A stretch of 64,000 nt of DNA from Escherichia coli (GTDB lineage Bacteria > Pseudomonadota > Gammaproteobacteria > Enterobacterales > Enterobacteriaceae). Where the stretch lies: the NCBI RefSeq assembly GCF_030013205.1, contig NZ_CP122648.1; one strand, given 5' to 3'. A program made the position numbers. Of this stretch, positions 3,001 to 6,000 are shown piece after piece. How positions within the stretch are numbered: the stretch's first letter is position 1; the number at the start of each line of letters is the position of its first letter.

Positions 3001-6000
3001 GTATCAAATCTGGATCATGCCGGAAGAAAACGGTATTACGCCGCGTTATGAACAGCGTCGCTTCGATGCCGTACAGGGCAAACAGCTGGTGCTCTCGCCG
3101 GATGCGCGTGATGGTTCGCTGAAAGTGTATCAGGATATGGAACTGTACCGCTGGGCGCTGGTAAAAGATGAGCAGTCGGTGCATCAGATTGCCGCTGAAC
3201 GCCGCGTCTGGATTCAGGTGGTGAAAGGCAATGTCACCATTAACGGCGTGAAAGCCTCGACCAGCGATGGTCTGGCAATCTGGGATGAGCAGGCAATCTC
3301 CATCCATGCGGATAGCGACAGCGAAGTGTTACTGTTCGATCTGCCGCCGGTTTAAAGCTCAACGGCATCTTTAAGCCTGCCTTATTGCAGGCTTCCTCGC
3401 TCGCTCCGGTCGCGTGCTAATGTACGCTTCCGGGGTTTTGCCGTGTCGTTAGCACAATGCGATGCAATTGATTTAGTGTATATCTAATAATTGTAAACAA
3501 GCACTGTTTTCCCCGGGAAGGTTCTGATGCGTCCGTGTTAAACTAAAAGAATCTATCTCTTTTGTACCTTCAGGACGATGAAAAAGAAAAGACCCGTACT
3601 TCAGGATGTGGCTGACCGTGTAGGCGTGACCAAAATGACGGTCAGCCGTTTTTTACGCAACCCGGAGCAGGTTTCCGTCGCTCTACGCGGCAAGATTGCC
3701 GCCGCTCTTGATGAACTGGGTTATATTCCCAATCGCGCACCCGATATCCTCTCTAACGCCACCAGCCGGGCGATTGGCGTCCTGTTACCTTCTCTCACCA
3801 ACCAGGTTTTCGCGGAAGTATTACGCGGAATCGAAAGCGTCACCGACGCGCACGGTTATCAGACCATGCTGGCCCACTACGGTTATAAACCGGAAATGGA
3901 GCAAGAACGTCTCGAATCAATGCTCTCCTGGAATATCGACGGACTGATCCTCACCGAACGTACCCACACGCCGCGCACCTTAAAGATGATTGAAGTGGCG
4001 GGGATTCCGGTGGTGGAGTTGATGGACAGCAAGTCGCCGTGCCTCGATATTGCTGTCGGTTTTGATAACTTTGAAGCGGCACGCCAGATGACCACCGCCA
4101 TTATTGCTCGCGGGCATCGCCACATTGCCTATCTCGGCGCACGTCTCGACGAACGTACTATCATCAAACAGAAGGGATACGAACAGGCGATGCTGGATGC
4201 AGGCCTGGTGCCATATAGCGTGATGGTTGAGCAATCTTCTTCTTACTCTTCCGGTATTGAACTGATTCGCCAGGCGCGGCGGGAATATCCGCAGCTGGAT
4301 GGCGTGTTCTGTACCAACGATGACCTGGCGGTCGGCGCGGCGTTTGAATGCCAGCGTCTGGGGTTGAAAGTTCCTGACGATATGGCGATTGCCGGTTTCC
4401 ATGGTCATGACATTGGTCAGGTGATGGAACCACGGTTGGCGAGCGTACTGACGCCGCGTGAGCGGATGGGCAGTATCGGCGCTGAACGCCTGCTGGCGCG
4501 TATTCGTGGCGAATCTGTGACACCGAAAATGTTAGATTTAGGTTTCACCTTGTCACCGGGCGGATCTATTTAAGCCCACAAATTTGAAGTAGCTCACACT
4601 TATACACTTAAGGCACGGATGGATATTGCTTCTGATATTGTCCGGCCGGACAATGTTACCGATAACAGTTACCCGTAACATCTTTAATTCTTGTATTGTG
4701 GGGGCACCACTTTGAGCACGACTAACCATGATCACCACATTTACGTCTTGATGGGCGTATCGGGCAGCGGCAAATCTGCGGTCGCCAGTGAAGTGGCGCA
4801 TCAACTTCATGCCGCGTTTCTTGATGGCGATTTCCTCCATCCGCGCTGCAATATCGAAAAAATGGCGTCTGGCGAACCGCTGAATGACGACGATCGCAAA
4901 CCGTGGTTGCAGGCGCTGAACGACGCCGCGTTTGCTATGCAGCGCACCAATAAAGTGTCGCTGATCGTCTGTTCTGCACTGAAAAAACACTATCGCGACC
5001 TGCTGCGTGAAGGTAATCCGAATCTTTCTTTCATCTACCTGAAAGGCGATTTTGATGTGATTGAAAGCCGCCTGAAAGCGCGCAAAGGCCATTTCTTTAA
5101 AACCCAAATGTTGGTGACGCAGTTTGAAACGCTGCAGGAGCCGGGTGCGGACGAAACCGATGTACTGGTGGTGGATATCGATCAACCGCTGGAAGGTGTT
5201 GTGGCAAGCACCATTGAGGTTATTAAAAAAGGCAAATAAGTAGTGACTCCATTAACGCTTGTTTTAACAGCAGTAGGGTCTGTTTTACTGCTGCTGTTTT
5301 TAGTCATGAAGGCGCGTATGCACGCTTTCCTGGCTTTAATGGTGGTGTCTATGGGGGCTGGCCTTTTTTCCGGTATGCCGCTCGATAAAATCGCAGCGAC
5401 GATGGAAAAAGGGATGGGAGGCACCCTCGGCTTCCTGGCGGTGGTTGTCGCCCTGGGAGCCATGTTTGGCAAGATCTTACATGAAACCGGCGCAGTGGAT
5501 CAGATTGCCGTCAAAATGCTCAAATCCTTCGGTCACAGCCGCGCGCATTATGCCATCGGCCTTGCGGGGCTGGTCTGTGCGCTGCCGTTGTTCTTTGAAG
5601 TGGCGATTGTTCTGCTGATTAGCGTTGCTTTCTCAATGGCGCGCCACACCGGTACGAACCTGGTGAAGCTGGTAATCCCATTATTCGCAGGCGTGGCGGC
5701 AGCGGCTGCGTTCCTGGTGCCGGGGCCTGCGCCAATGCTGCTGGCATCGCAGATGAACGCCGACTTTGGCTGGATGATCCTGATTGGCCTGTGTGCGGCA
5801 ATTCCGGGAATGATTATTGCCGGGCCGCTGTGGGGTAATTTCATCAGCCGCTACGTGGAGTTGCATATTCCTGACGACATCAGCGAACCGCATCTCGGCG
5901 AAGGCAAAATGCCGTCCTTCGGATTCAGCCTGTCGCTGATCCTGTTGCCACTGGTGCTGGTGGGGCTGAAAACCATTGCCGCGCGTTTTGTGCCAGAAGG

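What the first reader, a model, noticed from the sequence alone, without database searches (positions are those of the whole stretch)
4653..4681. Paired GntR operator palindromes at gntKU, with a related site upstream of gntT
ATGTTACCGATAACAG and AGTTACCCGTAACAT lie head-to-tail upstream of gntK, and ATGTTACCCGTATCAT lies upstream of gntT (42422-42437). The same repressor thus marks both gluconate transport loci in the window, which supports the gene calls and the promoter positions.
Basis: partly seen in the sequence, partly recalled or inferred. Interest (0 to 1): 0.2.

Follow-up and report, generated by a model that had tools for sequence, protein, structure and literature searches.

The report
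Known GntR operators at gntK and gntT
These short palindromes are the textbook binding sites of the E. coli gluconate repressor GntR in front of the gluconate kinase/transporter operon and the gntT transporter gene; they are real, conserved and already well described.

Summary
Observation confirmed and interpretation supported, but already known. The window is E. coli chromosome (gntR-gntK-gntU at 3578-6583, gntT at 40945-42261 on the minus strand). ATGTTACCGATAACAG (4653-4668) and CAGTTACCCGTAACAT (4666-4681) are two 16-bp GntR operators overlapping by 3 bp (centres 13 bp apart). They start inside the inferred gntK -10 hexamer. ATGTTACCCGTATCAT (42437-42422, minus strand) contains the gntT -10 hexamer. 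A weight matrix built only from GntR/IdnR-type sites outside the window (edd, idnK/idnD of K-12) ranks these four sites as the top four of the window (16.4-20.1 bits; shuffles reach 16.4 bits 0.1 times per window). Upstream of gntK in 120 other genomes the pair is conserved at 13 bp (65 loci) or 14 bp (17). Both gntT operators are kept in 86 of 99 distinct orthologous upstream regions. Published work uses exactly these sequences as GntR operators and notes the conserved 13-bp overlap. Caveats: E. coli GntR is a LacI-family protein, not a "GntR-family" one. The paralogue IdnR/GntH has the same type of site. How two dimers occupy sites 13 bp apart remains unresolved.

The parts
3578..4573 (+). 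gntR, the LacI-family gluconate repressor (331 aa)
   Evidence: ORF; RefSeq annotation of an identical genome; Pfam LacI HTH + Peripla_BP_1; NCBIfam GntR equivalog, 776 bits against a cut-off of 433
4583..4598 (.). CRP-like site TTTGAagtagcTCACA, centre about -70.5 from the inferred gntK transcription start
   Evidence: Read from the sequence; moderately conserved in 64 distinct orthologous upstream regions. CRP assignment is an inference from the TGTGA-N6-TCACA consensus
4626..4631 (+). Inferred gntK -35 hexamer TTGCTT
   Evidence: Conserved block (TTGC at 1.6-1.9 bits) in the footprint of 62 distinct sequences. Below the threshold of the promoter scan
4649..4654 (+). Inferred gntK -10 hexamer GACAAT (17-bp spacer); its last two bases are the first two of operator 1
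   Evidence: Conserved GAnAAT block in the footprint; invariant between the window and K-12
4653..4668 (.). gntK operator 1, ATGTTACCGATAACAG (about -8 to +8)
   Evidence: 17.9 bits; conserved upstream of gntK across Enterobacterales; used as a functional GntR site in PMC10450161
4666..4681 (.). gntK operator 2, CAGTTACCCGTAACAT (about +6 to +21), sharing 3 bp with operator 1
   Evidence: 16.4 bits; the 13-bp pair is conserved in 65 loci; the overlap is described as functional at E. coli gntKU in PMC4052901
4712..5239 (+). gntK, gluconokinase (TTG start)
   Evidence: Annotation; NCBIfam gluconokinase equivalog; 174/175 identical to K-12 GntK
5243..6583 (+). gntU, low-affinity gluconate transporter
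   Evidence: Annotation; Pfam GntP_permease
40945..42261 (-). gntT, high-affinity gluconate transporter (438 aa)
   Evidence: ORF; NCBIfam gluconate transporter equivalog, 931 bits against a cut-off of 744
   Evidence: 19.5 bits, second best in the window; present in 86 of 99 distinct orthologous upstream sequences
42422..42437 (-). gntT promoter operator ATGTTACCCGTATCAT; its last six bases are the -10 hexamer TATCAT (42427-42422)
   Evidence: 20.1 bits, best in the window; used as the E. coli GntR operator and -10 in a cell-free gluconate sensor
42446..42451 (-). gntT -35 hexamer TTCTCA (18-bp spacer)
   Evidence: Promoter scan; conserved at 1.8 bits
42479..42494 (.). CRP-like site TATGAccaaccTCTCA (minus strand), centre about -71.5 from the inferred gntT start at 42415
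   Evidence: Read from the sequence; conserved half-sites in the footprint (mean 1.43 bits). CRP assignment is an inference from the consensus

Best explanation
These are the operators of the E. coli GntI gluconate regulon, bound by the LacI-family repressor GntR, which is encoded just upstream (3578-4573). Without gluconate, GntR dimers sit on two overlapping 16-bp pseudo-palindromes at gntK. These run from the last two bases of the -10 hexamer to about +21, so RNA polymerase cannot form an open complex or clear the promoter. At gntT one operator covers the spacer and the -10 hexamer. A second lies about 141 bp downstream in the 5' leader, 19 nt before the ATG, and strengthens repression by cooperation at a distance (looping) or as a roadblock. 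Gluconate binding to GntR releases it from DNA. cAMP-CRP sites centred near -70.5/-71.5 supply the activation that the weak -35 hexamers need. Shown here: sequence, position, statistical excess, conservation and identity of the genes. Taken from the literature: GntR binding and gluconate release on these exact 16-mers, and GntR-dependent repression of PgntK and PgntT. Inferred: exact transcription starts, CRP roles, and the way two dimers share the 13-bp-spaced pair or communicate over 141 bp.
For: Window identity and gene calls. Sites at the stated coordinates. Consensus search finds 4 distinct sites (6 matches against 0.40 expected), all in the two gnt regulatory regions. An independent PWM from edd and idnK/idnD sites ranks them 1-4 in the window. 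gntT operator 1 contains the -10 TATCAT. In the gntK footprint over 62 distinct sequences, the 29-bp operator block carries 1.81 bits per position, against 0.74 (5' flank) and 0.17 (3' flank), with conserved -35 and -10 blocks. The pair is conserved at 13 bp in 65 loci and at 14 bp in 17. Both gntT operators are conserved in 86 of 99 distinct upstream regions whose overall identity to the window is only 57-99% (median 67%). The 33-nt -10+O1+O2 stretch is identical in 5313 of 5426 E. coli genomes, and the three window-versus-K-12 SNPs in the region avoid all elements. Literature: ATGTTACCGATAACAG and the consensus gave gluconate-responsive GntR binding (PMC10450161). ATGTTACCCGTATCAT gave GntR repression relieved by gluconate in vitro (bioRxiv 10.1101/2023.01.10.523462). 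PgntK, PgntT and PidnK were repressed more than 5-fold by GntR, with PgntK tightest (PMC13386637). The 13-bp overlap at gntKU is reported as functional and conserved (PMC4052901).
Against: Nothing argues against the identity of the sites. Weak points concern mechanism. The simple promoter scan finds no sigma-70 match at gntK, so that promoter rests on conservation and on my reading of the hexamers. The gntT operator spacing varies from 133 to 144 bp among orthologues, which is not what a strictly phase-dependent loop predicts. GntR (331 aa) aligns to LacI only to about residue 316 of 360 and so lacks LacI's C-terminal tetramerisation helix. Ravcheev et al. state that dimers bound 13 bp apart are hard to reconcile with known LacI-family/DNA structures. 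The original footprinting and primer-extension papers could not be read.
Confidence: 0.95

Rival explanations
1. The sites are mainly targets of the paralogous LacI-family regulator IdnR (GntH) of the GntII/idonate system, or are shared by both regulators, so the motif does not by itself point to GntR.
For: The idnK/idnD intergenic site ACGTTATGCGTAACAT fits the same consensus. The window's GntR scores 402 bits on the IdnR model (below its cut-off of 500), showing close paralogy. PMC4052901 says GntR recognises the IdnR sites at idnK and idnDOTR. [quoted passage not shown]
Against: gntR lies directly next to gntKU. GntR-dependent repression of PgntK and PgntT was shown in gntR-deleted versus gntR-restored hosts, and GntR alone works on these 16-mers in mammalian and cell-free systems. 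Cross-binding by IdnR would add to GntR control, not replace it. Whether this strain carries idnR lies outside the window.
Confidence: 0.3
2. At gntK only one GntR dimer binds at a time. The two overlapping registers are alternatives that raise the chance of occupancy, not a pair bound together.
For: The operators share 3 bp, and the shared base at 4667 can suit only one of them. Orthologues carry either CAG (favouring operator 1) or CTG (favouring operator 2). PMC4052901 notes that the overlap falls inside the zone of specific contacts and that dimers at this distance cannot interact.
Against: The spacing is confined to 13-14 bp in 82 of 83 paired loci, and LacI-family sites as a whole show a peak at 13 bp, which suggests a geometric requirement. 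PgntK is the most tightly repressed of the three GntR promoters. The paper reports the arrangement as functional.
Confidence: 0.3
3. The palindromes are chance matches or act as a nucleic-acid hairpin (attenuator or terminator) rather than as protein-binding sites.
For: Palindromes can fold, and both gntK operators lie in the transcribed leader if the start is near 4661.
Against: Four sites against 0.4 expected matches. They are the top four PWM scores in the window. They are conserved at DNA level while the flanks diverge. Folding of 4645-4690 is no better than shuffles (-3.5 kcal/mol, z = -1.05). No terminator-like site is found there.
Confidence: 0.01

Closest known systems
E. coli K-12 gntKU and gntT GntR operators (Porco et al. 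1997; Peekhaus & Conway 1998; Izu et al. 1997; Tsunedomi et al. 2003, cited)
   Same: The operator sequences are identical. K-12 and the window are the same across -35, -10, both gntK operators and the CRP-like site. The 16-mers equal those quoted from these papers.
   Different: Three flanking SNPs in the 171-nt gntK regulatory region and a GntR-irrelevant R46C change in GntK.
Overlapping LacI-family operator pairs about 13 bp apart (Ravcheev et al. 2014, PMC4052901)
   Same: The gntK pair has centres exactly 13 bp apart and is the example that paper cites. My independent survey finds the same conservation (65 loci at 13 bp, 17 at 14 bp).
   Different: Nothing new. I add that the shared junction base toggles between A and T, favouring one operator or the other, and that a 14-bp spacing lets both sites end and start with the consensus AT.
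Dual-operator repression at a distance (lac O1/O2, gal OE/OI)
   Same: gntT has one operator on the core promoter and one about 141 bp downstream. K-12 edd has two sites 222 bp apart, one of them inside the first codons.
   Different: GntR lacks LacI's C-terminal tetramerisation segment. The spacing drifts between 133 and 144 bp among orthologues. Looping is therefore an inference, not shown here.
GntR/FadR family of winged-helix regulators (named after Bacillus subtilis GntR)
   Same: The name and the effector (gluconate).
   Different: The E. coli protein has a LacI-type HTH and a periplasmic-binding-protein fold. Its operator is a LacI-type 16-bp palindrome with a central CG-like step.

Membership tests
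E. coli GntR (LacI-family) operators of the GntI regulon | 16-bp pseudo-palindrome matching ATGTTACCCGTAACAT | tested here: met
   1-3 mismatches at four sites against 0.40 expected matches. An out-of-window PWM scores them 16.4-20.1 bits, ranks 1-4.
E. coli GntR (LacI-family) operators of the GntI regulon | Located on the promoter or leader of gluconate uptake and catabolism genes | tested here: met
   gntK start at 4712 and gntT start at 42261. The gntT operator contains the -10. The gntK operators start inside a conserved -10.
E. coli GntR (LacI-family) operators of the GntI regulon | Cognate LacI-family GntR present | tested here: met
   NCBIfam GntR equivalog at 776 bits (cut-off 433); Pfam LacI + Peripla_BP_1.
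E. coli GntR (LacI-family) operators of the GntI regulon | Conserved in orthologous promoters | tested here: met
   gntK: 83 of 116 assessable loci carry a pair and 26 a single site. gntT: 86 of 99 distinct sequences keep both operators.
E. coli GntR (LacI-family) operators of the GntI regulon | Bound by GntR and released by gluconate | not testable with these tools
   Supported only by the literature, on identical 16-mers and on the K-12 promoters.
GntR/FadR-family (winged-helix) operator | Regulator carries a GntR-type winged HTH (Pfam PF00392) | tested here: not met
   Pfam finds LacI (PF00356) and Peripla_BP domains only.
Overlapping 13-bp LacI-family operator pair | Two full sites with centres about 13 bp apart, conserved among orthologues | tested here: met
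   4653-4668 and 4666-4681; 65 loci at 13 bp; described in PMC4052901.
Overlapping 13-bp LacI-family operator pair | Both sites occupied at the same time | not testable with these tools
   No solved GntR-DNA complex exists. The paper calls the geometry unresolved.
DNA-looping dual operators (lac/gal type) at gntT | Two operators separated by tens to hundreds of bp | tested here: met
   42422-42437 and 42281-42296, 141 bp apart.
DNA-looping dual operators (lac/gal type) at gntT | Helical phasing preserved among orthologues | tested here: inconclusive
   Spacings in bp, with the number of distinct sequences in brackets: 133 (3), 136 (1), 139 (2), 140 (18), 141 (34), 142 (2), 143 (2), 144 (24).
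DNA-looping dual operators (lac/gal type) at gntT | Repressor has a LacI-like C-terminal tetramerisation helix | tested here: not met
   GntR is 331 aa. Its match to LacI covers query residues 6-317 against LacI 4-316 of 360, leaving no room for the heptad helix.

The most novel reading that the evidence does not exclude
Both overlapping gntK operators are occupied at once by two GntR dimers, in a binding mode not seen in any solved LacI-family/DNA complex: they share 3 bp, sit about 86 degrees apart around the helix, and may need local DNA distortion. The A/T junction base at 4667 would then tune which dimer binds more tightly. Orthologous gntT promoters have switched in evolution between this tandem layout (14 bp) and the distal layout (about 141 bp).
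Probability: 0.3. Interest if true: 0.35.

Novelty: already known. Interest (0 to 1): 0.08.

Why it matters
It matters little beyond annotation. The sites confirm the gntRKU and gntT gene calls, place both promoters, and show that this strain keeps the K-12 gluconate circuit intact. The one open point is general and already flagged in the literature: how two LacI-family dimers use operators only 13 bp apart. The gntK pair is the standard natural example for testing that, but this window adds nothing that K-12 does not already offer.

Tried and rejected
The primary papers (Peekhaus & Conway 1998, Tsunedomi 2003, Tong 1996, Porco 1997) could not be read by PubMed or PMC id because they are not held. 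Mapped transcription starts and footprints are therefore not cited directly. The positions I give are inferred from conserved hexamers.

The sigma-70 scan found nothing at gntK because TTGCTT matches only 3 of 6 in the -35. I used the phylogenetic footprint instead.

A hairpin or attenuator reading of the gntK palindromes was rejected (z = -1.05).

The fifth-best PWM hit (58868-58883, 13.4 bits) lies inside hslO and is at the level of shuffle maxima, so I rejected it as chance.

The weak matches 224-242 nt upstream of the anchor in some gntK loci score below 9 bits in the window. I judged that they fall in the conserved 3' coding end of gntR, but did not check this, and did not pursue them.

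The per-position information for the gntT operators is inflated, because those sequences were selected with a regular expression for the two sites. The unbiased figure is the PWM scan (86 of 99 distinct sequences).

Full report
**1. What is in the sequence**

- ATGTTACCGATAACAG is at 4653-4668.
- AGTTACCCGTAACAT is at 4667-4681. As a full 16-mer the site is CAGTTACCCGTAACAT at 4666-4681.
- The two gntK sites therefore share 3 bp, and their centres are 13 bp apart.
- ATGTTACCCGTATCAT is the minus-strand reading of 42422-42437.

The window is E. coli chromosome. A 2-kb query around the site is 100% identical to several swine ETEC genomes and is found in 5424 of 5426 complete E. coli genomes. The genes are:

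| Gene | Coordinates | Strand | Evidence |
|---|---|---|---|
| gntR | 3578-4573 | + | |
| gntK (TTG start) | 4712-5239 | + | |
| gntU | 5243-6583 | + | |
| gntT | 40945-42261 | - | |

**2. Is it more than chance?**

The published consensus ATGTTACCCGTAACAT, searched with up to 3 mismatches, gives 6 matches on 4 distinct sites. The expectation from shuffles is 0.40, and no shuffle reached 6.

To avoid circularity I built a symmetric weight matrix from three sites outside the window. Two come from upstream of, or in the start of, K-12 edd, and one from the idnK/idnD intergenic region.

That matrix ranks 42422, 42281, 4653 and 4666 as the four best positions in the whole window, at 20.1, 19.5, 17.9 and 16.4 bits. 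The next hit scores 13.4 bits, lies inside hslO, and equals the typical best score of a shuffled window (mean 13.5). Shuffled windows reach 16.4 bits 0.1 times on average.

That site is ACGTTACCCATAACAA at 42296-42281 on the gntT strand, 141 bp downstream of the promoter operator and ending 19 nt before the gntT ATG.

**3. Anatomy of the two promoters**

*gntT.* The scan finds -35 TTCTCA (42451-42446), an 18-bp spacer and -10 TATCAT (42427-42422). The -10 is the last six bases of the operator. With a start near 42415:
- the promoter operator spans about -22 to -7;
- the distal operator spans about +120 to +135;
- a CRP-like TATGA-N6-TCTCA (42494-42479) is centred at -71.5 (inference).

*gntK.* The scan finds no promoter. 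A footprint of 62 distinct orthologous sequences shows three conserved blocks:
- TTGC(TT) at 4626-4631;
- GAnAAT at 4649-4654, with a 17-bp spacer;
- the 29-bp operator block.

The operator block carries 1.81 bits per position, against 0.74 in the 5' flank and 0.17 in the 3' flank. With a start near 4661, operator 1 spans -8 to +8 and operator 2 spans +6 to +21. A CRP-like TTTGA-N6-TCACA (4583-4598) is centred at -70.5 and is moderately conserved.

The transcription starts and the CRP assignments are inferences. The papers that mapped them were not available to me.

**4. Comparative evidence**

*gntK.* A codon-degenerate pattern for the GntK P-loop retrieved 120 gntK-type loci, mostly from Enterobacterales genomes, without reference to the operators. 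Upstream of gntK the layouts are:

| Layout | Loci | Examples |
|---|---|---|
| Pair, starts 13 bp apart | 65 | Escherichia, Citrobacter, Enterobacter, Klebsiella, Kluyvera, Photorhabdus, Proteus, Edwardsiella |
| Pair, 14 bp apart | 17 | Serratia, Xenorhabdus, Hafnia, Pluralibacter, Chitinilyticum |
| Pair, 15 bp apart | 1 | Providencia |
| Single site | 26 | Pantoea, Erwinia, Mixta |
| No site | 7 | Serratia (4 of the 7), Arsenophonus |

The junction base at window position 4667 is A in some lineages and T in others. It is shared by both operators and can match the consensus for only one of them. A 14-bp spacing removes this conflict, because the consensus both starts and ends with AT.

*gntT.* A similar pattern in metagenome contigs gave 99 distinct upstream sequences.
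- 86 keep both the promoter operator and the ATG-proximal operator, although overall identity to the window is only 57-99% (median 67%).
- In these, the spacing is 133-144 bp, most often 141, 144 or 140.
- 12 carry a tandem 14-bp pair instead.

*Within E. coli.* The 33-nt -10+O1+O2 stretch is identical in 5313 of 5426 genomes. The three SNPs between the window and K-12 in the 171-nt regulatory region all miss the operators, hexamers and CRP-like site.

**5. Literature**

[quoted passage not shown] It obtained gluconate-responsive GntR binding, which was abolished by deleting the site or by inserting 2 bp at its centre.
[quoted passage not shown] It showed repression by GntR that was relieved by gluconate.
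- PMC13386637 showed more than 5-fold GntR-dependent repression of PgntK, PgntT and PidnK, with PgntK the tightest.
- Ravcheev et al. (PMC4052901) report a family-wide peak of inter-site distance at 13 bp. They say this arrangement was demonstrated to be functional for the GntR-binding sites upstream of E. coli gntKU, and that it is conserved in more than half of GntR-regulated operons in gamma-proteobacteria. They add that such binding is hard to reconcile with known structures.

My comparative results therefore reproduce published knowledge.

**6. Mechanism**

Best supported: GntR is a LacI-family dimer. It occludes the -10/+1 region of both promoters in the absence of gluconate, and gluconate releases it. 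CRP supplies activation.

Unresolved points:
- *Occupancy of the gntK pair.* It is not known whether the two operators are occupied together or alternately. The restricted 13-14 bp spacing and the tight repression of PgntK favour joint occupancy. The shared bases, and the remark in PMC4052901 that such dimers cannot interact, favour alternation.
- *Role of the distal gntT operator.* It could act by looping or as a roadblock. GntR lacks the LacI tetramerisation tail, and the spacing is not phase-locked among orthologues.
- *No structure.* No GntR-DNA structure exists.
- *Hairpin reading.* A hairpin function is not supported.
- *Paralogue.* IdnR/GntH has the same type of site, and GntR is reported to recognise the IdnR sites. 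The motif alone therefore does not assign the protein. Adjacency of gntR and the published GntR experiments do.

**7. Verdict**

- gntT has a second operator;
- the gntK operators overlap by 3 bp;
- GntR belongs to the LacI family;
- IdnR may cross-regulate these sites.

The feature is already known, and interest is low.

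Noticed in passing
window 42281-42296 (- strand): A second gntT operator, ACGTTACCCATAACAA, lies in the 5' leader 19 nt before the ATG. It has the second-best PWM score in the window and is conserved in 86 of 99 distinct orthologous upstream regions.
   Followed up: yes
L124-L243 (metagenome gntT loci), e.g. L139, L160, L183, L193, L236: 12 of 99 distinct gntT-type upstream regions carry a tandem pair of operators 14 bp apart instead of the promoter-plus-leader pair about 141 bp apart. Orthologous promoters have therefore switched operator architecture.
   Followed up: partly
L002 (K-12 edd-zwf region) 878-893 and 1100-1115: K-12 edd also has two GntR-type sites, 222 bp apart. One is upstream (ATTTTACCGGTAACAT). 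The other lies within the first 27 nt of the edd coding sequence (TTGTTACGCGTAACAA). This mirrors the gntT layout.
   Followed up: partly
window 4583-4598 and 42479-42494: CRP-like TGTGA-N6-TCACA sites are centred about 70.5 and 71.5 bp upstream of the inferred gntK and gntT starts. Both are partly conserved in orthologues.
   Followed up: partly
window 4847-4849 (GntK codon 46): GntK carries Cys46 where K-12 has Arg (174/175 identical). Across 111 gntK loci this position is variable: Ser 55, Ala 36, Cys 11, Arg 4. The change looks like a neutral polymorphism.
   Followed up: yes
window 4667: The base shared by both gntK operators is A here and T in Enterobacter, Kluyvera, Leclercia and others. 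A favours operator 1 and T favours operator 2. This is a direct consequence of the 3-bp overlap.
   Followed up: partly
window 42537-42555 (- strand): A terminator-like hairpin with a T-rich tail lies just downstream of the upstream gene (ORF 42622-43197, probably nfuA/gntY) and ahead of the gntT promoter. It suggests gntT is insulated from read-through.
   Followed up: no
window 58868-58883: The fifth-best GntR PWM hit, TTGTTACCGTTAATAA (13.4 bits), lies inside hslO. Its score is what shuffled sequence gives, so it is judged a chance match.
   Followed up: yes
window 1317-1381 (+) and 25229-25271 (+): Rfam gathering-level matches to the RyhB sRNA (83 bits) and to the ES036/CssrF sRNA (43.6 bits). 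Both are unrelated to the finding.
   Followed up: no
L206 (metagenome contig): A gntT copy has an in-frame stop after about 23 codons (MPLVIVAIGVILLLLLMIRLLQVW*) while keeping both operators. It is a possible pseudogene or assembly error.
   Followed up: no
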